Shown here: piece after piece, positions 1 to 7,052 of the stretch
How the letters are laid out: every line of letters starts with the position of its first letter
Numbering within the stretch: position 1 is the first letter of the stretch
Source of the DNA: a virus
Lineage: Duplodnaviria > Heunggongvirae > Uroviricota > Caudoviricetes
IMG/VR virus record: IMGVR_UViG_2778261417_000006
DNA length: 7,052 nucleotides
Reading direction: 5' to 3' (one strand)
Translations under genes and position numbers: made by a program
Notes under the pieces: model-generated
Database searches by the model: none
The model's input: only the letters and a program-made list of their open reading frames with translations
What the model was told of the DNA's origin: nothing

Positions 1-130
1 GAATCTGAGGCAGCACCTGGCACGGCTGGGACGGAAGTCGCTGTCGTTCTCAAAATCGGTGGAGCTGCATGACAAAGTCATCGGGCATTATCTGAACATA
101 AAACACTATCAGTAAGTTGGAGTCATTACC
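1..130 (+). mobile_element. IS1 right end, partial and window-truncated (3' end of insB plus terminal inverted repeat)
   Basis: Positions 2-115 translate to [37 protein letters not shown]-stop, the InsB C-terminus as I recall it. The element ends ...CTATCAGTAAGTTGGAGTCATTACC at 130, matching the IS1 terminal repeat. Bases 1-130 are the exact reverse complement of 6923-7052. Confidence 0.93.
2..115 (+). CDS. insB: IS1 transposase InsB, C-terminal fragment (gene continues upstream of the window)
   Basis: Open frame from the window edge to TAA at 113-115; the translation matches the InsB C-terminus from memory. Confidence 0.85.
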
Positions 131-747
131 GGGATCGCGTTCTTAATATCAATGAAACCGCTGATGTATGGTCTTATGCTTACGGTAATAATTTGCTAAC
201 TCTGTCATCAATATATAACCGAAGAATAATGGTTATCTGCCTGGTGTTTGGTTGCCGACAGCAGGAGGCGAGGCTATCCACCTGGGACGAATGGGATTTA
301 AAAAACTGGGTATGGACAGTCCCAAAAGAGCACAGCAAAAACAAGGAGGCTATAGTAAGGCCTGTTCCTGACGGAATAAAACAATGGATCGTTAATCTTT
401 ACGCAGAAACAAAAAATCGCGGTTATGTTGTCGGTTGTGCTTTGCAAAGGGCGACAATAACAGGGGCTGCAAACAGAATATGCAGGCGTCTTGGTCATGA
501 TACTAATGGCTTGTGGTGCATACATGATTTCAGGCGCACATTTTCCACTACGCTTAATGATATGGGGGCGGATCCTTATATTGTCGAACTTCTTTTAGGT
601 CATAAAGTGAAAGGGGTTGCTGGTGTTTACAATAAAAGCAGGCATATAAAGAAAAAACTTGAGGTGCTTAATATGTGGGTTAATTACCTTAATACGATAG
701 CAGGATTTAACAACAACGTTATCGAGCTTAATAAAGAGGTGGTGTGA
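131..747 (+). pseudogene. int: Tyrosine recombinase (P4-type phage integrase), C-terminal catalytic domain only; 5' part interrupted by IS1
   Basis: The frame of the 193..747 ORF stays open back across the IS1 junction at 130/131, with no native start. The translation carries catalytic-domain hallmarks: ARLSTWDEWDL...WTVPKEHSKNK, box II HDFRRTFSTTL, and LLGH...GVAGVY with the presumed catalytic Tyr. About 205 aa are present against roughly 400 expected. Confidence 0.88.
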
Positions 748-748
748 T

Positions 749-1006
749 ATGGCAATTTATTCTCTTGTTGATGAAAACGATTTGCGCACAATGAAGGACA
801 TTGATCGGTTCATTCGTGAAAAAGAGTGCATAGCACTTACCACGCTGGCAAACTCAACACGCTGGAAAATGGAGCAGGCAGGTAAATTCCCGCGACGTAT
901 CAAGATCGGTGAACGTGCTGCAGGGTATCGACTTTCAGAGGTTCAGGCATGGATCCGTGGTGAGTGGCATCCTGGATGGAAACCTGGAAAAACAAAACAG
1001 CAATAA
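749..1006 (+). CDS. alpA: AlpA-family phage transcriptional regulator / excisionase-like DNA-binding protein
   Basis: 85 aa. The ATG lies 1 nt after the int stop and has an AGAGG-type SD. The motif IALTTLANSTRWKMEQAGKFPRRIKIGERAAGYRLSEVQAWI fits the AlpA/Xis helix-turn-helix signature (GxFP...W...ev..W). Confidence 0.8.
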   Translation: MAIYSLVDENDLRTMKDIDRFIREKECIALTTLANSTRWKMEQAGKFPRRIKIGERAAGYRLSEVQAWIRGEWHPGWKPGKTKQQ

Positions 1007-1018
1007 CCAGTAAATAAT

Positions 1019-1042
1019 GCCCCTCATCACGAGGGGTTTTTT
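1019..1042 (+). terminator. Rho-independent terminator after alpA
   Basis: Stem CCCCTC (1020-1025), loop ATCAC, stem GAGGGG (1031-1036), then TTTTTT (1037-1042). Confidence 0.75.
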
Positions 1043-1062
1043 GTCTATAAGGTAAAAACGCG

Positions 1063-1641
1063 ATGAATAAAAATATTGCCGTGACGGGCAAGGGGTACGC
1101 TCGTCCAGTGAAAAAATTCTGCGATATTCGTGATCTCGTCGTTCTGCGCTTTGATAGTGTGAACGTTCGTGTGGTGTATCTGAACGGCGATCCGTGGTTT
1201 GTTGCAAAAGATGTTTGTGCTGCGCTGGAACTAACCAATTCGCGTACGGCGTTGCAGATGCTTGATGATGATGAAAAGGGAGTAAATTTAACTTACACCC
1301 CAGGAGGAAATCAGAATATGAGAATTATCTCTGAGTCAGGTTTCTACAAACTAATAGCCCGCAGCCGCAAAGCAACGACGCCTGGCACATTTGCTCATCG
1401 TTTCAGTAACTGGGTATTCAGAAATGTGATACCAGGTATCAGAAAAACGGGGACTTATGGTATCCCGTGGGGTGCATTACAGGATTTTTCCCGCCGTAAA
1501 GAGCAATATCAAATAAGTGCCAGCGAGAAGGGGAGGGAGCTACAGGCATGTAAGCGCAAAAAGCGTGAGCTGGAGGAAGAAGAAAAAACGCTGATACGTG
1601 AATATCAGCCTGAGTTTTACTTTGGTAACCGCATTCAGTGA
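1063..1641 (+). CDS. Bro-N domain protein (phage antirepressor-like) with charged C-terminal tail
   Basis: 192 aa. Residues about 35-140 (VRVVYLNGDPWFVAKDVCAALELTNSRTALQMLDDDEKGV...TPGGNQNMRIISESGFYKLIARSRKATTPGTFAHRFSNWVFRNVIPGIRKTGTY) match the Bro-N consensus closely. The C-terminus is K/R/E-rich and looks coiled-coil-like. Confidence 0.85.
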   Translation: MNKNIAVTGKGYARPVKKFCDIRDLVVLRFDSVNVRVVYLNGDPWFVAKDVCAALELTNSRTALQMLDDDEKGVNLTYTPGGNQNMRIISESGFYKLIARSRKATTPGTFAHRFSNWVFRNVIPGIRKTGTYGIPWGALQDFSRRKEQYQISASEKGRELQACKRKKRELEEEEKTLIREYQPEFYFGNRIQ

Positions 1642-1650
1642 CAAAACAAA

Positions 1651-1671
1651 GGCGACCGCAAAAGGGTCGCC
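1651..1671 (-). terminator. Hairpin with T-run on the minus strand; candidate terminator for the leftward unit, convergent with the Bro-N gene
   Basis: GGCGACC (1651-1657), loop GCAAAAG, GGTCGCC (1665-1671). The + strand A-rich tract just upstream (1641-1650) reads as a U-run on the minus strand. Confidence 0.5.
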
Positions 1672-1737
1672 AGTGGGAACAAGGGAAAACAAAAGCATCA
1701 CCAACAATGCCACATTTGCGGCTGGTGGGCAATGTGA

Positions 1738-1917
1738 TCAGTCAGATTTGGTTCGTTCCAAGGTTTGCAACGAGAGCTTTTTCCTGTGCTCTTTAAGGAA
1801 TTTCTCAAGAGCAAACGAACAAGGTGCGAATCTTTCTGATTCATGTTCATGCGCTATATTTTTGCGTCGTCTCTTACGAGTTGGTGATGGTGTTTTGGTT
1901 GATTCTGTGTCGCTCAT
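1738..1917 (-). CDS. Hypothetical small basic protein, 59 aa (absent from the supplied ORF track)
   Basis: Hand translation of the minus strand gives MSDTESTKTPSPTRKRRRKNIAHEHESERFAPCSFALEKFLKEHRKKLSLQTLERTKSD-stop. It sits 57 bp downstream of the 101-aa minus-strand gene, has an AGGA about 8 nt upstream, and the minus-oriented hairpin lies about 70 bp beyond its stop. Confidence 0.4.
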   Translation of the reverse strand: MSDTESTKTPSPTRKRRRKNIAHEHESERFAPCSFALEKFLKEHRKKLSLQTLERTKSD

Positions 1918-1974
1918 GGTGCTGTCCTGTAAAGCAATGCGCCTGCGTTCCTCAAACTATGGCGCTGATATTGG

Positions 1975-2280
1975 CTATTCATGCTCTTTGACCTTGCGTC
2001 GCTGGAGTTCTTCACGCGCGACGGTGACGAGTTGCCCGATCTCCTCGGCTGCTTTGATGCCGATTTGTTCGACCTTAGCCAGGGCATCCAGTGACGACAC
2101 AAGGGGATTTTCTCCGCTGCCTTCTGCTTGGCGGCGGGCTATTTCTCCGCGCATGGCGGTTACGATAAATCCGGCATTGCTTTCACCGTCCAGCTTAACG
2201 GATTCCATCCCTTGCATAACATCTAGTGGGACTCTGACAGTTGTCAGTTGTGATTTTGCGTTTTTGTTAGCCGTTGCCAT
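1975..2280 (-). CDS. Hypothetical 101-aa protein; candidate DNA-binding regulator of the element (possibly ribbon-helix-helix-like)
   Basis: AGGAG SD 8 nt upstream of the ATG. It is transcribed divergently from the rightward operon across a palindromic operator region. The N-terminal segment TTVRVPLDVMQGMESVKL is compatible with a beta-strand plus helix RHH fold, but the family is not recognised with certainty. Confidence 0.5.
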   Translation of the reverse strand: MATANKNAKSQLTTVRVPLDVMQGMESVKLDGESNAGFIVTAMRGEIARRQAEGSGENPLVSSLDALAKVEQIGIKAAEEIGQLVTVAREELQRRKVKEHE

Positions 2281-2301
2281 TTCTGAAACTCCTAATCATC
2301 G

Positions 2302-2379
2302 GTGTGTTTCAGTATACACAAAAAAAGAAATACAAAAAGCCTTGACGTGTGTTTCATGCGCTCATAACATGAAACACAC
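2302..2379. promoter_or_regulatory. Divergent promoter/operator region
   Basis: Perfect inverted repeat GTGTGTTTCATG (2347-2358) / CATGAAACACAC (2368-2379) with a 9-bp spacer. A third half-site GTGTGTTTCA sits at 2302-2311. Candidate + promoter: -35 TTGACG (2342-2347), 17 bp, -10 TAACAT (2365-2370). Candidate minus promoter: -10 TATACT (complement of 2311-2316). Confidence 0.6.
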
Positions 2380-2470
2380 CGAAAGGATTGTTGAAATACA
2401 AAGAGCAACGCCCCGCAGTGCTGGGAACACATACGGGGCGTCTAACCAACAACGTAAACTAGGAGCCGTT

Positions 2471-2668
2471 ATGGTTGCTGTAAATCATATACCACACCTT
2501 GTACACACACAAACGGCCTTTGTGTGGCGTTTTCTGGCACTGAGTGCCGGAGAATCTCAAATCATCCACGTAACCGCCTGGACGGAACGCGAAGCGCGTA
2601 GCCGTTGCCCGTCCGGTTGTGTTGCTGTATTCGCTGCAAAAATCCGCCAGGGAGTGAGTCATGCTTAA
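2471..2668 (+). CDS. Hypothetical protein, 65 aa; likely first gene of the rightward operon
   Basis: AGGAG SD 5 nt upstream of ATG 2471. Its stop overlaps the start of the next ORF by 8 nt. It is the 3' end of the long 1598..2668 stop-free frame in the ORF track. Confidence 0.45.
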   Translation: MVAVNHIPHLVHTQTAFVWRFLALSAGESQIIHVTAWTEREARSRCPSGCVAVFAAKIRQGVSHA

Positions 2669-2846
2669 AACCTTCCGTGTATTTGCCCGAGCTGTTAACC
2701 CAATAGGCCACACAATTGGTATCGCTCAGAATGTGAAGGCTGTTAATGTTCAGACGGCTATTGCTGCGGTGAGAAGCGAATCATCAGAATATGGCTTATC
2801 ACAAGTCATTATTTCAGCAGTGTATGAATTAAAAGAGGTGCATTAA
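2661..2846 (+). CDS. Hypothetical protein, 61 aa
   Basis: GGGAG SD; stop TAA overlaps the next ATG as TAATG (translational coupling). Confidence 0.5.
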   Translation: MLKTFRVFARAVNPIGHTIGIAQNVKAVNVQTAIAAVRSESSEYGLSQVIISAVYELKEVH

Positions 2847-3037
2847 TGCAGGAAATTACATTACACGAAGCCGCTGAACGTGCGCACCAGACAGAAATTA
2901 TTTGCCGCCTTCTTGAGGTATACCCGAACAAAATTACAGATGCTGATATATCCGCACTGGCGAGCCTACTGGCGCGTCTTTCGGGAAGTGTCGCTAGTTT
3001 TTTGATTGAGGAAGAAAGTAAGCTGGTGGGGGATTAA
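2846..3037 (+). CDS. Hypothetical acidic protein, 63 aa
   Basis: AGAGG SD; stop TAA is immediately followed by the next ATG (coupled). Confidence 0.5.
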   Translation: MQEITLHEAAERAHQTEIICRLLEVYPNKITDADISALASLLARLSGSVASFLIEEESKLVGD

Positions 3038-3259
3038 ATGAATACAGAACGGGAAGTCTTTTTTAAATTGTTAGCATGTGCAGAAAGTTCATTAACTTTA
3101 AATAATTCAGCAAAAGCAATATTAAATATGTGGCTTGATTGCATAAATGACAATGAAGATGCAAATATTGCTTATGGCCTGTTGTCACTTATTGATGAAT
3201 CAGCAGAAAAACTCAATGACGCAATAAATAGTGCCCTGCTATCAAATAAGTCGAGTTAA
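3038..3259 (+). CDS. Hypothetical acidic protein, 73 aa, encoded in a markedly AT-rich segment (candidate moron)
   Basis: GGGGGA SD 4 nt upstream. By eye this ORF is about one-third GC, well below the flanking genes. Confidence 0.5.
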   Translation: MNTEREVFFKLLACAESSLTLNNSAKAILNMWLDCINDNEDANIAYGLLSLIDESAEKLNDAINSALLSNKSS

Positions 3260-3276
3260 GTCGAGGAATAAATAAT

Positions 3277-3576
3277 ATGGAAATGAAAAATTCTGGCTTT
3301 ATTGCCAGCGGCCCCGCTCGACCTGAATTTATGAACGGCGATATTTACCGCGATAAATACGGCGGCACGGTAACGATTAAAGGCGTGGCAGAACGGCGCA
3401 TCACTTACCGCCGTGAGGGGTATAGCTATGACTGCGTGATGCCTGTTTATCAGTTCCGGCGTGATTTTTCCCTGGTATATGCCGCACCCCGCAGTAAGCC
3501 CATCAGCAGGGAAAAAGCGTGGGGAAATATCCAGAAAATGAAAACCATGATTAACGGATTCAGAGGTAAAAAATGA
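3277..3576 (+). CDS. Hypothetical protein, 99 aa; immediately upstream of and overlapping the primase-like gene
   Basis: GAGGA SD; ATGA start/stop overlap with the 584-aa ORF. Confidence 0.55.
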   Translation: MEMKNSGFIASGPARPEFMNGDIYRDKYGGTVTIKGVAERRITYRREGYSYDCVMPVYQFRRDFSLVYAAPRSKPISREKAWGNIQKMKTMINGFRGKK

Positions 3577-5327
3577 AACTGGCACCGAACGTAAAACAGC
3601 AGTCACGCGGCATAAAACACAAAGGAACAGAAGTAATTATTTTTGCGGGTAGTGATGCCTGGGCACACGCGAAACAATGGCAGGAACATGATGCGCGTAT
3701 GGCCGGAGATAATGAGCCTCCTGTGTGGCTTGGGGAGCAGCAGCTATCCGAACTGGATAATCTGCAAATTGTGCCGGAAGGCCGAAAATCAGCACGCATA
3801 TACAGGGCCGGATATCTTGCGCCTGTAATGATAAAGGCGATTGGTCAGAAGCTGGCGGCAGCAGGCGTACAGGATGCAAATTTTTATCCTGAGGGTATGC
3901 ACGGCCAGGAGGTGCAGAACTGGCGCGAATATCTGGCCCGTGAACGCCAGAATCTTTCTGATGGTCTGGTCATTGAGCTTCCGGTAAAGCAAAAGGCGCA
4001 ACTTTCGCAGATGGCGGACAGTGAGCGCGCGCAGTTGCTTGCCGATCGCTTTGATGGCGTTTGCGTACATCCTGAAAGTGAAATCGTTCACGTATGGCGC
4101 GGCGGGGTATGGTGTCCGGTCAGCACAATGGAACTTAGCCGCGAAATGGTGGCGATCTATTCAGAGCACAGGGCCACTTTCAGCAAGCGCGTAATCAATA
4201 ACGCCGTGGAAGCGTTAAAAGTTATTGCCGAACCAATGGGCGAGCCGTCTGGCGATTTGCTGCCGTTCGCCAATGGTGCGCTTGACCTGAAAACGGGGGA
4301 ATTTTCCCCGCACACGCCGGAGAACTGGATCACCACGCACAACGGCATTGAGTACACGCCACCAGCACCAGGGGAGAACATCCGCGATAACGCGCCAAAC
4401 TTTCATAAATGGCTTGAGCACGCAGCCGGAAAAGACCCGCGCAAGATGATGCGTATATGTGCCGCGCTGTACATGATTATGGCGAACCGGTACGACTGGC
4501 AGATGTTTATTGAGGCCACCGGAGACGGCGGGAGCGGTAAAAGTACATTCACACACATAGCCAGCCTTCTGGCAGGGAAACAGAACACGGTAAGCGCTGA
4601 AATGACATCGCTTGATGATGCTGGTGGACGTGCGCAGGTTGTCGGGAGTCGTCTTATCGTCCTGGCTGACCAGCCGAAATATACAGGCGAAGGAACGGGC
4701 ATCAAGAAAATCACAGGCGGCGACCCCGTGGAAATTAACCCGAAATATGAAAAGCGTTTCACGGCGGTAATCAGGGCGGTGGTGCTGGCGACCAACAACA
4801 ACCCGATGATATTCACCGAACGGGCCGGAGGTGTGGCACGTCGTCGCGTGATTTTCCGTTTCGACAATATCGTCAGTGAGGCCGAAAAAGACAGGGAGCT
4901 ACCGGAAAAGATTGCGGCTGAAATCCCCGTTATTATCCGCCGATTGCTGGCGAACTTTACCGACCCTGAGAAGGCACGGGCTTTACTACTGGAACAGCGT
5001 GACGGTGATGAAGCACTGGCAATAAAGCAACAGACGGATCCGGTTATTGAGTTTTGCCAGTTCCTGAATTTTCTGGAGGAAGCGCGCGGCCTGATGATGG
5101 GTGGCGGTGGTGATTCAGTGAAGTACACGACCAGGAACAGCCTTTACCGCGTCTATCTGGCGTTTATGGCATACGCGGGCAGGAGCAAACCGCTAAACGT
5201 GGCTGAGTTCAGCAAGGCCATGAAGCCAGCGGCGAAAGTTTACGGGCATGAATATATTACGCGAAAAGTTAAGGGAGTAACGCAGACCAACGCAATTACA
5301 ACAGACGATTGCGACGCGTTTTTATAA
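3573..5327 (+). CDS. Replication protein: P4-family primase C-terminal domain / D5-like SF3 helicase
   Basis: 584 aa. Walker A GDGGSGKST is encoded at 4521-4547. The block LIVLADQP...KKITGGDPVEINPKYEKRFTAVIRAVVLATNNNPMIFTERAGGVARRRVIFRF resembles the phage/plasmid primase P4-family C-terminal signature. GAGG SD 6 nt upstream. Confidence 0.82.
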   Translation: MKLAPNVKQQSRGIKHKGTEVIIFAGSDAWAHAKQWQEHDARMAGDNEPPVWLGEQQLSELDNLQIVPEGRKSARIYRAGYLAPVMIKAIGQKLAAAGVQDANFYPEGMHGQEVQNWREYLARERQNLSDGLVIELPVKQKAQLSQMADSERAQLLADRFDGVCVHPESEIVHVWRGGVWCPVSTMELSREMVAIYSEHRATFSKRVINNAVEALKVIAEPMGEPSGDLLPFANGALDLKTGEFSPHTPENWITTHNGIEYTPPAPGENIRDNAPNFHKWLEHAAGKDPRKMMRICAALYMIMANRYDWQMFIEATGDGGSGKSTFTHIASLLAGKQNTVSAEMTSLDDAGGRAQVVGSRLIVLADQPKYTGEGTGIKKITGGDPVEINPKYEKRFTAVIRAVVLATNNNPMIFTERAGGVARRRVIFRFDNIVSEAEKDRELPEKIAAEIPVIIRRLLANFTDPEKARALLLEQRDGDEALAIKQQTDPVIEFCQFLNFLEEARGLMMGGGGDSVKYTTRNSLYRVYLAFMAYAGRSKPLNVAEFSKAMKPAAKVYGHEYITRKVKGVTQTNAITTDDCDAFL

Positions 5328-5340
5328 TTTTTTGTAAAAG

Positions 5341-5564
5341 CCATCTACCCCATCTACCTGAACGAAATAAACGCATATTATTCAACATGATAAGTGGGTA
5401 TAGGGCTAGGTAGAAGGCTAATAAAAGCTCTCTACCTCTTCTACCTGATTTTATCAGTTTCAGGTAGCAGGGTAGACGGCAGGTAGAGGAGTCAAAAAAG
5501 CTATCTACCCGCTGAAAGCGGCGCCATTACTGACATGATGAGCATTCGGGTAGATGGGTAGAGG
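5341..5564. repeat. Iteron cluster; candidate origin of replication
   Basis: Eleven copies of the pentamer CTACC/GGTAG in 224 bp. Tandem CCATCTACC x2 at 5341-5358 is mirrored by GGGTAGATGGGTAGAGG at 5548-5564. Other copies: 5409-5414, 5431-5436, 5440-5445, 5463-5467, 5471-5475, 5482-5486, 5504-5509. An AT-rich core lies at 5359-5394. Confidence 0.65.
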
Positions 5565-5613
5565 GGGGGAGGCACAACTAAAAACTTTTTAAACGAGGGG
5601 GGGGTGAAAATAA

Positions 5614-5928
5614 ATGCGCATACATAAAAATCACTTAACAAACATGCCAGCCGAAAACATGAATCAGGGGCGACAAATGACCAAAATTCGCAGAGACAGA
5701 ACACAGGCAAAATATAAAGCGTTAGACATGACAGAGCTTTCCTTAAAGGTGGCAATCAAAGCGATAGACCACCACACACGGGCAGGATACGCGAAGGAAC
5801 ATCCCGACCTGATAAGCGCATTCATGACCACAGCAGCGGCAAACTTTGCCACGCTGACAGAACGGGAGATTGCCGAAGCGGAACAGGTGACAACCATCAA
5901 TGTTAAAACCGGAGAGCAGACAGCATGA
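5614..5928 (+). CDS. Hypothetical protein (104 aa from ATG 5614; alternative start at 5677 gives 83 aa)
   Basis: Its stop overlaps the SSB start (ATGA). The 5677 start has an AGGGG SD at 6-nt spacing; the 5614 start follows a G8 tract. Confidence 0.55.
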   Translation: MRIHKNHLTNMPAENMNQGRQMTKIRRDRTQAKYKALDMTELSLKVAIKAIDHHTRAGYAKEHPDLISAFMTTAAANFATLTEREIAEAEQVTTINVKTGEQTA

Positions 5929-6347
5929 CAGCACAGATAGCGGCTTACGGGCGGCTGGTGGCTGACCCGCAGTTAAAGACCACCAGCAAAGGGACACAAA
6001 TGGCGATGGCGAGTATGGCGGTTCCCCTGCCGTGCAGCCAGGCAGATGACGGAACGGCGACGATGTGGTTATCCGTCCTGGCGTTTGGCAGACAGGCCGA
6101 CGCACTGGCAAAACACCACAAAGGCGAACTGGTGAGCGTGGCGGGTAACATGCAGGTAAGCCAGTGGACAGGCCAGAACGGCGAAACGCGGCGGGGCTGG
6201 CAGGTTATCGCAGACAGCGTAATCAGTGCGCGAACGGCGCGACCGGGCGGCAAAAAAGGCCAGCAGGGGCAGGCCACTGACGCACTGAACAGGGCAAAAC
6301 AACAGTCGGGGAATGATGATCCGTACGGCGATAATATACCGTTTTAA
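5925..6347 (+). CDS. ssb: Single-stranded DNA-binding protein (SSB family)
   Basis: 140 aa. The OB-fold region aligns with E. coli SSB by eye (GRL.ADP...W..V.AFG..A......KG..V...G......W). The C-terminus ends ...DDPYGDNIPF, resembling the conserved SSB tail DDDIPF. Confidence 0.85.
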   Translation: MTAQIAAYGRLVADPQLKTTSKGTQMAMASMAVPLPCSQADDGTATMWLSVLAFGRQADALAKHHKGELVSVAGNMQVSQWTGQNGETRRGWQVIADSVISARTARPGGKKGQQGQATDALNRAKQQSGNDDPYGDNIPF

Positions 6348-6364
6348 ATTCTGCAAACAAAAAG

Positions 6365-6393
6365 ATGCCGGAAAAAAATAGATTTTCCGGCAT
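6365..6393. terminator. Perfect 11-bp-arm hairpin downstream of ssb
   Basis: ATGCCGGAAAA (6365-6375), 7-nt loop, TTTTCCGGCAT (6383-6393). The U-run is on the minus-strand side; termination on the + strand is plausible but weaker. Confidence 0.5.
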
Positions 6394-6564
6394 GCTACAT
6401 AAATCCCGACCAAAGGAAGTAAATACATTAACACGAATTATCAGCACTGAAGTTGTTACGGCATATTTTATACAACATTGCACTTGGTTGCATGTGTTCG
6501 CATAGCAGACATCGGTAATAGAATATATTCACAATTATTTGTAATGAATGTAAAGAGGATGAGT

Positions 6565-6927
6565 ATGGTTGATTTATATTCGCCTACACAGCTTGTGCAG
6601 GTGGCTAATGCTGAAGATGTGCAAAAAAAATTAAATGCGTTGTTTACCAGTTTGTTTTTCACTCGCTCGGTAATGTTTGAATCGAGAGACATTATTCTTG
6701 ATACGATCGACGATCCAAATATCCCGATCGCGGCGTTTTGCTCTCCTATGGTGGGCAGTAAAGTTTCACGAGATGAGGGATACGAATCAAAAACAATTCG
6801 TCCAGGTTATATGAAGCCGAAAAGCAGCATTGATCCAAATAAGTTAGCTGTGCGCCCTGCTGGTGTGTCACCTGAGCAATACAATGCTTTTGGGGCGCGT
6901 AATATTAAAGTTAAACAGGCGAGGTAA
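6565..6927 (+). pseudogene. Lambda gpE-like major capsid protein, N-terminal about 120 codons only; truncated by IS1
   Basis: The translation from 6565 (MVDLYSPTQLVQVANAEDVQKKLNALFTSLFFTRS...FCSPMVGSKVSRDEGYESKTIRPGYMKPK...) resembles the lambda E N-terminus as I recall it (LFLRLFFRES...YVSPIVSGEVIRSRGG...TPGYVKPK). AAGAGG SD 6 nt upstream. The stop TAA (6925-6927) is supplied by the IS1 terminal sequence GGTAATGA. An alternative start at 6559 (MSMVDLY...) has no SD spacing. Confidence 0.65.
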
Positions 6928-7052
6928 TGACTCCAACTTACTGATAGTGTTTTATGTTCAGATAATGCCCGATGACTTTGTCATGCAGCTCCACCGATTT
7001 TGAGAACGACAGCGACTTCCGTCCCAGCCGTGCCAGGTGCTGCCTCAGATTC
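6923..7052 (-). mobile_element. IS1 right end, partial and window-truncated, inverted relative to the copy at 1-130
   Basis: Exact reverse complement of 1-130; begins GGTAATGACTCCAACTTACTGATAG. Confidence 0.93.
6938..7051 (-). CDS. insB: IS1 transposase InsB, C-terminal fragment (gene continues beyond the window)
   Basis: Mirror image of 2-115; the stop is the complement of 6938-6940. Confidence 0.85.

What the first reader, a model, noticed from the sequence alone, without database searches (positions are those of the whole stretch)
6565..6927. Lambda E-like capsid gene cut by IS1, with the stop codon donated by the IS1 terminal repeat
Only about 120 of an expected 340 or so residues remain. 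A satellite carrying its own lambda E-family capsid gene would itself be notable. The truncation means any capsid-forming ability is lost in this copy, and the rest of a packaging module, if it existed, lies beyond the IS1 or was deleted.
Basis: partly seen in the sequence, partly recalled or inferred. Interest (0 to 1): 0.5.

Follow-up and report, generated by a model that had tools for sequence, protein, structure and literature searches.

The report
IS1-broken capsid gene in a PICI
This is the first third of a lambda-type capsid gene carried by a well-known kind of E. coli phage satellite, cut by an IS1 insertion; it is real but ordinary gene decay, not a new kind of element.

Summary
ORF 6565-6927 holds 119 native codons of a 346-codon lambda E-family capsid gene (Pfam PF03864, above the curated cut-off). 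Identity to intact genes stops at base 6922. IS1's terminal repeat starts at 6923 and supplies GG of codon 120 and the TAA stop.

The window is a whole short-read contig. Both ends are the same 130-nt IS1 end in inverted orientation, and the integrase is also cut, at codon 209.

The 6.8 kb between them is 99.9-100% identical to a ~10.9 kb Gram-negative PICI present whole in dozens of complete E. coli genomes. There it sits inside the portal gene of a lambdoid prophage, the published "helper-embedded PICI" arrangement.

Capsid homologues in such PICIs have been known since 2018: EcCICFT073 c1499, which matches PDB 3BQW, and 21 of 29 reference elements. They were dispensable for transfer and interference.

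Intact relatives carry only capsid, decoration protein, an AlpA-like regulator, a cos-like site and a small terminase. That is not a full head module.

The integrase 5' half, with a matching 9-bp target duplication, lies on another contig of the same assembly, so this IS1 looks like a plain insertion. The capsid 3' part was not located.

Verdict: already known, low interest.

The parts
1..130 (+). Last 130 nt of an IS1 copy (the IRR end, outer base at 130). The contig ends inside the repeat.
   Evidence: Exact reverse complement of 6923-7052. Matches IS1 copies annotated as IS1 family transposase.
131..139 (.). 9-bp target-site duplication GGGATCGCG of the left IS1 insertion.
   Evidence: The same 9 bp precede the IS1 IRL on contig NOSH01000102.1 of the same assembly, at L009 1055-1063.
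131..747 (+). 3' part of the PICI tyrosine integrase (second base of codon 209 to codon 413). The 5' part is separated from it by IS1.
   Evidence: Alignment to L001 starts at L001 5783, inside the 413-aa integrase gene 5158-6399. Pfam Phage_integrase.
749..1006 (+). AlpA-family regulator/excisionase.
   Evidence: PF05930, E = 5.4e-14.
1063..1641 (+). Bro-N domain protein (the PICI 'Bro zone').
   Evidence: PF02498, E = 4.9e-20.
3277..6347 (+). Replication zone: DUF4222 protein (3277-3576), D5_N/DUF5906 primase (3573-5327), a hypothetical gene, and SSB (5925-6347). All are intact.
   Evidence: Pfam hits. Same gene lengths as in L001.
6348..6564 (+). AT-rich (35% GC) spacer upstream of the capsid gene. 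It holds a hairpin at 6365-6393 and a Shine-Dalgarno AGAGGA at 6554-6559.
   Evidence: The single promoter-like site (6497-6524) is not above chance.
6565..6922 (+). Native 5' part of the PICI lambda E-family capsid homologue: codons 1-119 plus the first base of codon 120.
   Evidence: PF03864 above the gathering score. 100% identical to intact 346-codon genes. 32% identity to lambda gpE and 51% to the EcCICFT073 homologue.
6914..6922 (.). Presumed 9-bp target (AACAGGCGA) of the right IS1 insertion. This is inferred, not verified.
   Evidence: By analogy with the left IS1 and with the O121 insertion. The complementary junction was not found.
6923..7052 (-). First 130 nt of a second, inverted IS1 copy (IRR end, outer base at 6923). 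The contig ends inside it.
6925..6927 (+). TAA stop codon of the truncated ORF, lying inside the IS1 terminal repeat (GG TAA TGA).

Best explanation
The window is a complete short-read contig. It holds the central 6.8 kb of a ~10.9 kb Gram-negative phage-inducible chromosomal island (PICI) of the EcCICFT073 / helper-embedded type, bounded on both sides by IS1.

The gene at 6565 is the PICI's own paralogue of the lambda major capsid protein E. An IS1 element inserted after the first base of codon 120. The transcript therefore reads A+GG (Arg) and then the TAA inside the IS1 terminal repeat, giving a 120-aa product.

That product keeps only about the first third of the family profile (Pfam positions 4-101 of 329). 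By inference from the HK97 fold this is the N-arm, the E-loop and the start of the spine helix. It lacks the A-domain and most of the P-domain, so this copy is a pseudogene with no capsid role.

A second IS1, in inverted orientation, splits the integrase at codon 209. Together the two insertions leave the island unable to excise on its own. They also separate its replication genes from the late zone found in intact relatives (decoration protein, AlpA-like regulator, cos-like site, small terminase).

Shown: the family, the exact breakpoints, the identity to intact islands, and the plain-insertion nature of the left IS1 (9-bp duplication, with the other half in the same assembly).

Inferred: that the right IS1 is also a plain insertion with the capsid 3' part just beyond it (about 70% likely), and that the fragment has no function.
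For: - Breakpoint and stop codon.
- Family: Pfam PF03864 at 28.4 bits for the fragment and 142 bits over the full length for the intact 346-aa protein. The intact protein is 42% identical to the helper prophage's E protein over its whole length. PDB hits are 3BQW and the lambda capsid 7VI9.
- Satellite identity: the gene order int, alpA, Bro-N, ylcI, icd-like, DUF4222, primase, SSB, capsid, decoration, AlpA-like, Nu1-like TerS is seen in L001, L003, L004 and L007. In L001, L004 and L007 the island splits a portal gene; in L003 only the 3' portal fragment is annotated beside it. In L001 that portal is 99% identical to lambda gpB up to residue 274.
- The doubled TGTATTGC motif that marks HE-PICIs is present at both att flanks (PMC10111431).
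- The window is the whole contig and has inverted identical IS1 ends.
- I predicted a 212-aa integrase remnant: 211 integrase codons, then Gly, then a stop in the IS1 IRL, assuming a 9-bp duplication. It exists as WP_244588003.1 on contig NOSH01000102.1 of the same assembly, together with the portal 5' end and attL.
- The internal genes are all intact, and the segment is 100.0% identical to NZ_CP138217.1. The IS1 events are therefore recent.
- The same gene is independently broken elsewhere: by IS1 at about codon 206 with a 9-bp duplication in an O121 strain, and by Q105*, Q118*, W174* and a 1-nt deletion in other assemblies.
Against: - The capsid 3' remnant of this genome was not located. The edge-of-contig translations I predicted for it are absent from the 15-billion-protein collection, so an IS1-mediated deletion of the late zone is not excluded.
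- The two inverted IS1 copies could equally result from one insertion followed by intramolecular replicative transposition (an inversion). That would give the same junction sequences.
- Non-function of the 120-aa product is inferred, not tested.
- No convincing promoter was found upstream, so even its expression is unknown.
Confidence: 0.92

Rival explanations
1. This is a variant of the main explanation. The right-hand IS1 did not simply insert. An IS1-mediated adjacent deletion or other rearrangement removed the capsid 3' part and the whole late zone (decoration, AlpA-like regulator, cos, TerS, attR) from this genome.
For: No contig with the complementary junction was found. The predicted edge-partial proteins of 234-255 aa are not in the collection. 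The 125-aa and 143-aa C-terminal ORFs that do exist were shown only on contigs of other samples: all 8 places shown for the 125-aa ORF, and the 10 shown of at least 24 contigs for the 143-aa ORF.
Against: - The left IS1 is a plain insertion: it has a perfect 9-bp duplication and its other half is present in the same assembly.
- The look-up needs an exact protein string and a guessed contig start, so a miss is weak evidence.
- With a 9-bp duplication the remnant has no in-frame start codon until the 143-aa ORF, which it shares with other lineages.
Confidence: 0.25
2. The fragment is the E gene of a decayed lambdoid prophage and is not a satellite gene.
For: It belongs to the same Pfam family as lambda E. 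Lambdoid prophage DNA lies next to the island in the relatives.
Against: - It is contiguous, at 99.9-100% identity, with integrase, alpA, primase and SSB in an island that interrupts a prophage portal gene.
- It is only 42% identical to the helper's own E protein, which is present intact about 5 kb downstream in L001.
- It is closer to the EcCICFT073 homologue: 51% versus 32% over the fragment.
Confidence: 0.02
3. The element is a capsid-forming PICI (cf-PICI) whose full head module lies beyond the IS1.
For: It carries capsid, decoration and small-terminase homologues.
Against: Intact relatives end about 3.3 kb after the breakpoint. They have no large terminase, portal, protease, head-tail adaptor or connector of their own. 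PMC10085698 lists large terminase, head-tail adaptor and connector as the markers that separate cf-PICIs from PICIs.
Confidence: 0.01
4. The capsid/IS1 junction is an assembly chimera and not a real insertion.
For: The contig comes from a short-read assembly and ends in a multicopy repeat.
Against: - The break falls exactly on the terminal base of the IS1 inverted repeat.
- The same 120-aa product is on 4 contigs from NCBI and Logan assemblies.
- The other junction of the same contig is validated by its partner contig and the 9-bp duplication.
Confidence: 0.02
5. The truncated 120-aa protein has acquired a function. For example, it could act as a dominant-negative piece (N-arm plus E-loop) that interferes with helper capsid assembly or with decoration-protein binding.
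For: - The start codon and Shine-Dalgarno sequence are intact.
- In lambda, the N-arm and E-loop are the gpE parts that bind gpD (PMC5701804).
- The allele is shared by several samples.
Against: - The same gene is broken at many different positions by unrelated mutations. That looks like loss of function, not selection for one particular fragment.
- The integrase of the same island is also broken.
- No promoter evidence was found.
Confidence: 0.03

Closest known systems
EcCICFT073 capsid homologue c1499 (crystal structure PDB 3BQW) with decoration homologue c1500
   Same: - It is a lambda E-family capsid paralogue followed directly by a lambda D-family decoration gene, in the late zone of an E. 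coli PICI.
- 3BQW is the best PDB hit for the intact relative, E = 1e-121.
- The window fragment is 51% identical to it.
   Different: - It is a different PICI lineage: a chromosomal site near phoQ rather than a prophage portal gene, and no terS according to PMC10111431.
- The window copy is truncated to 119 native codons.
Helper-embedded PICIs (Eco567.11capE and relatives, Mageeney et al. 2023, PMC10111431)
   Same: - The island sits inside a late gene of a lambdoid prophage and is co-oriented with it.
- It has the doubled tgTGTATTGCantgTGTATTGCa motif at both att flanks.
- It shows the same four zones: integration, Bro, replication, late.
- It carries its own E-family capsid gene.
   Different: - The relatives here are in gene B (portal), a published site class, not in gene E.
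- They also carry a Nu1-like terS, which 11capE lacks.
- The window copy is split by two IS1 elements.
SaPIbov5 Ccm (a capsid-protein homologue that redirects capsid size)
   Same: It is a satellite-encoded paralogue of the helper's major capsid protein. This is the usual analogy offered for what PICI capsid genes might do (PMC6092414, PMC8569155).
   Different: No size redirection has been shown for E. coli PICIs. EcCICFT073 is packaged as phage-sized DNA, and deleting c1499 did not relieve interference with lambda (PMC6092414). Nothing here tests it.
Bacteriophage lambda gpE
   Same: Same Pfam family and same length class: 341 versus 346 aa. The helper prophage's own E protein, which is also 341 aa, is 42% identical to the intact PICI protein over the full length. 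The window fragment is 32% identical to lambda gpE itself.
   Different: The PICI gene is a diverged paralogue in a satellite that has no portal, protease or scaffold genes of its own.

Membership tests
Phage major capsid protein E family (Pfam PF03864) | Significant match to the family profile. | tested here: met
   Fragment: 28.4 bits against a cut-off of 22.9, E = 1.1e-6, profile positions 4-101 of 329. Intact relative: 142 bits, profile positions 4-327 of 329.
Phage major capsid protein E family (Pfam PF03864) | A complete HK97-type fold, meaning the full-length domain needed to build capsomers. | tested here: not met
   Only 119 of 346 native codons remain. The alignment to the helper prophage's lambda-type E protein ends near its residue 114.
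Gram-negative PICI (SatelliteFinder core set; PMC10085698) | Integrase, AlpA-type regulator, primase-replicase, capsid homologue and small terminase, co-localised in a ~10-20 kb island that lacks the other structural genes. | tested here: met
   The window holds int (3' part), alpA, primase and capsid (5' part). Intact relatives 99.9-100% identical over the shared 6.8 kb have all five in about 10.9 kb. terS itself is not in the window.
Helper-embedded PICI (PMC10111431) | [quoted passage not shown] | tested here: met
   The portal (lambda B) gene is split at about residue 275 in L001, L004 and L007. The source assembly has portal 5' end, attL and int 5' part together on contig NOSH01000102.1.
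Helper-embedded PICI (PMC10111431) | The doubled TGTATTGC motif flanking the att core. | tested here: met
   Present at L001 5080-5140 and 15752-15775, and at L009 358-412. Absent from the window itself because both att-proximal regions lie outside it.
Capsid-forming PICI (cf-PICI) | Its own large terminase, head-tail adaptor and connector (the markers that PMC10085698 says separate cf-PICIs from PICIs), together with portal and protease. | tested here: not met
   None of these is annotated or detected inside the island in four complete genomes.
P4-like satellite | P4 core genes such as sid, psu and delta alongside int and the alpha primase. | tested here: not met
   No such families appear among the Pfam hits of the window ORFs or in the relatives' annotation. 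No C4/isrK RNA was found. The test is limited to Pfam and Rfam.
IS1 | The terminal inverted repeat GGT(A/G)ATG..CCAACTTACTGAT, a 9-bp target duplication, and the insA/insB transposase. | tested here: met
   The terminus and its homology to annotated IS1 copies are shown. The 9-bp duplication GGGATCGCG is shown for the left copy. Only 130 nt of each copy is in the window, so the transposase genes are seen only as a 23-aa end.

The most novel reading that the evidence does not exclude
The 120-aa N-terminal fragment would comprise, by inference, the N-arm and E-loop, which are the parts of lambda-type capsid protein that contact neighbouring subunits and the decoration protein. It might be expressed from its intact ribosome-binding site and act as a dominant-negative inhibitor of lambdoid helper capsid assembly. 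In that case an IS1 truncation would have turned a dispensable satellite gene into an anti-phage factor.
Probability: 0.03. Interest if true: 0.45.

Novelty: already known. Interest (0 to 1): 0.1.

Why it matters
It matters little as a discovery. Satellite-borne lambda E-type capsid genes, and helper-embedded PICIs, are already published, and this copy is a broken one.

Its modest value lies in three points:
- It shows how IS1 expansion dismantles a PICI. The integrase and capsid genes are both split, and in both cases the stop codon comes from the IS1 ends.
- It is a caution for annotation. A 7-kb contig bounded by IS1 can look like a truncated element when the rest may sit one IS1 away.
- It adds to a pattern of repeated, independent inactivation of this PICI capsid gene. 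This fits the experimental finding that the gene is dispensable and keeps open the question of what it is for.

Tried and rejected
- I searched 5,426 complete E. coli genomes and PLSDB plasmids for the capsid/IS1 junction. None has it. The two hits that seemed to cover window 1-6922 carry IS1 copies at other positions.
- My first exact look-up of predicted integrase remnants failed. I had used the L001 integrase, which differs at residue 55 (F versus S). Repeating it with the sequence of the 100%-identical relative succeeded.
- I predicted capsid 3' remnants in several forms: IS1-fusion starts for 8- and 11-bp duplications, and edge-of-contig translations for a 9-bp duplication. None is in the collection.
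- The 125-aa and 143-aa C-terminal ORFs are in the collection, but every place shown was in another sample. For the 143-aa ORF only 10 of at least 24 contigs were shown.
- I considered a cf-PICI, a P4-like satellite, a decayed prophage E gene and an assembly chimera. All were rejected on gene content and context (see the rival explanations).
- The promoter scan upstream of the gene gave nothing above chance.
- The Rfam scan of the window gave no hit.
- A literature search found no later paper assigning a function to E. coli PICI capsid homologues.

Full report
**1. The observation**

The ORF at 6565-6927 on the + strand is real and encodes 120 residues. A blastn of the whole window against an intact relative (L001, E. 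coli CFSAN018748) gives one alignment, window 131-6922, at 99.93% identity. In a search of 5,426 complete E. coli genomes, the 30 best of 366 matches to window 6350-7052 all end at 6922.

The intact gene continues ...AAA CAG GCG ATT GTA AAT.... The window reads ...AAA CAG GCG A|GG TAA TGA CTC CAA CTT ACT GAT AGT G. So 119 codons plus one base are native. The GG of codon 120 (Ile to Arg) and the TAA at 6925-6927 belong to the IS1 terminal inverted repeat.

From 6923 onward the sequence matches thousands of IS1 copies annotated as IS1 family transposase. In other loci the same terminus sits directly against 9-bp target duplications.

The donated stop is correct but unremarkable. This IS1 end closes the three possible incoming frames after 0, 6 and 26 codons.

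**2. Family**

The 120-aa fragment passes Pfam's curated threshold for Phage_cap_E (PF03864: 28.4 bits against 22.9, E = 1.1e-6, profile positions 4-101 of 329). The intact 346-aa protein of relatives matches the whole profile (142 bits). It is 42% identical over its full length to the E protein of the adjacent helper prophage.

The fragment is 32% identical to lambda gpE and 51% identical to the EcCICFT073 protein. The closest solved structure for the intact protein is 3BQW (E = 1e-121), followed by the lambda capsid structure 7VI9. 3BQW matches the capsid-like protein of the EcCICFT073 locus over all 351 residues at 801 bits.

**3. What the window is**

The window is the entire 7,052-bp contig NOSH01000066.1 of assembly GCA_002521985.1. 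Bases 1-130 are the exact reverse complement of 6923-7052. Both contig ends therefore run into the same (IRR) end of IS1, in inverted orientation, and the short-read assembler stopped there.

Between them lie the integrase 3' part (cut within codon 209 of 413), alpA, a Bro-N gene, ylcI/ynfO on the opposite strand, an icd-like gene, three small ORFs, DUF4222, a D5_N/DUF5906 primase, a hypothetical gene, SSB, and then the capsid fragment. All internal genes are intact, and the segment is 100.0% identical to NZ_CP138217.1. The IS1 events are therefore recent.

**4. Intact relatives**

In four complete genomes the island is about 10.9 kb. After the capsid gene it continues with five features:
- a lambda D-family decoration gene (PF02924);
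- a second AlpA-like regulator;
- an 83-bp stretch 87% identical to the helper region upstream of nu1, which I read as a cos-like site;
- a small terminase that matches only the C-terminal part of Nu1;
- one hypothetical gene.

There is no portal, protease, large terminase or connector. This is not a full head module and not a capsid-forming PICI.

In L001, L004 and L007 the island splits a portal gene. In L003 only the 3' portal fragment is annotated beside it, and IS1 lies upstream. In L001 the portal is 99% identical to lambda gpB up to residue 274, and in PK13 the prophage is Qin-like. Both att flanks carry the doubled TGTATTGC motif.

This is the helper-embedded PICI configuration described by Mageeney et al. 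2023. They report sites in genes A, B, C and E, the same doubled motif, and the same four-zone layout (PMC10111431).

**5. Is a satellite capsid gene notable?**

No. Four sources show it is already documented:
- Fillol-Salom et al. 2018 described EcCICFT073's putative capsid protein (c1499) and decoration protein (c1500). Deleting either did not restore lambda plaque formation, and the island is packaged as phage-sized DNA (PMC6092414).
- Mageeney et al. state that 21 of 29 reference Gram-negative PICIs carry a capsid gene and that it is not required for helper-assisted transfer.
- SatelliteFinder uses the capsid homologue as one of five PICI core markers (PMC10085698).
- I found no later paper that assigns it a function.

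**6. What lies beyond the IS1 copies?**

I predicted that, if the left IS1 were a plain insertion with a 9-bp duplication, the other half would encode 211 integrase codons, then Gly, then a stop inside the IS1 IRL. That exact 212-aa protein exists (WP_244588003.1).

It lies on contig NOSH01000102.1 of the same assembly. That contig carries the portal 5' fragment, attL with the doubled motif, the integrase 5' half, GGGATCGCG, and then the IS1 IRL GGTAATGGTGCC.... The same 9 bp open the satellite part of the window (131-139). So the left IS1 is an insertion with a target duplication, and the integrase remnant's stop is also donated by IS1.

The same test for the capsid 3' part was uninformative. 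With a 9-bp duplication there is no in-frame start until a 143-aa ORF that other lineages also produce. The edge-of-contig predictions were not found. The contigs shown for the 125-aa and 143-aa ORFs come from other samples.

I judge retention of the 3' part next to IS1 about 70% likely, by analogy with the left side. Deletion is not excluded. An IS1-mediated inversion would give the same junction sequences as two independent insertions, and short reads cannot tell them apart.

**7. How it works**

For this copy, the gene is a pseudogene. The product keeps only about the first third of the fold. By inference from the HK97 fold order and the alignment, this is the N-arm, the E-loop and the start of the spine helix. 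It cannot form capsomers.

With the integrase split as well, the island cannot excise by its own means. Its replication genes are also separated from the late zone that holds the cos-like site and terS in intact relatives.

For the intact gene, the function is not established. Published ideas are a Ccm-like size-redirecting paralogue, or a backup copy captured from helpers (PMC6092414, PMC10111431). The experimental evidence so far is that it is dispensable.

**8. A related pattern seen in passing**

The same gene is independently inactivated elsewhere:
- by IS1 at about codon 206, with duplication TGGGTGGTA, in an O121 strain whose island carries three IS1 copies;
- by Q105*, Q118* (eight samples), W174* and a 1-nt deletion in other assemblies.

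This sample was selected for broken genes, so it gives no rate. The intact protein is on at least 1,000 contigs.

**9. Verdict**

The identification as a lambda E-family satellite gene cut by IS1 is correct, but the claimed notability is not. It is an ordinary, recent IS1 disruption of a known PICI gene: already known, low interest.

Noticed in passing
window 1-130 and 6923-7052; L009 (NOSH01000102.1) 1055-1140: Both contig ends are the same IS1 end in inverted orientation. The integrase is also split by IS1, at codon 209. Its 5' half lies on another contig of the same assembly with a 9-bp duplication, GGGATCGCG. Its stop codon (TAA) is likewise donated by the IS1 IRL, a variant reading GGTAATGGTGCC.
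   Followed up: yes
L001 4128-5009 and 15855-16628; L004; L007; L008: Intact copies of this island sit inside the portal (lambda B-like) gene of a lambdoid or Qin-like prophage, flanked by the doubled TGTATTGC motif. This is the published helper-embedded PICI arrangement.
   Followed up: yes
L003 (E. coli O121 201805972) 6134-6886, 10647-11344, 14990-15755: The same island in an O121 strain carries three IS1A copies. One is an independent insertion in the capsid gene at about codon 206, with the 9-bp duplication TGGGTGGTA.
   Followed up: partly
L020, L022, L023, L027 (capsid gene at ~892-1932 of each): The same capsid gene carries independent nonsense or frameshift alleles in other assemblies: Q105*, W174*, a 1-nt deletion at nt 324, and Q118* (the last in 8 samples). 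This suggests recurrent pseudogenisation. The sample was selected for broken genes, so no rate can be given.
   Followed up: partly
L001 14021-14103 versus L001 1256-1338: An 83-bp stretch between the island's AlpA-like gene and its terS is 87% identical to the helper region just upstream of nu1. It is probably the island's cos site, and it lies outside the window.
   Followed up: partly
L001 14204-14746: The island's small terminase matches only the C-terminal part of the Nu1 profile (positions 80-162 of 164). Its first ~65 residues are unrelated, as if a different DNA-binding head were fused to a helper-TerL-binding tail.
   Followed up: no
L001 13619-14002: A second AlpA-family protein (127 aa) is encoded directly after the decoration gene in the late zone. 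Its role is unknown.
   Followed up: no
window 6348-6564: A 217-bp AT-rich (35% GC) spacer lies between SSB and the capsid gene, with an 11-bp-stem hairpin at 6365-6393. There is also an in-frame ATG at 6559 that would give MSMVDLY..., resembling lambda gpE's MSMYTT start.
   Followed up: no
window 1641-2470 (Bro zone): No Rfam family reached threshold anywhere in the window. This includes the P4 CI/seqA-type RNAs (C4, isrK) that PMC10111431 reports in the Bro zones of several PICIs.
   Followed up: partly
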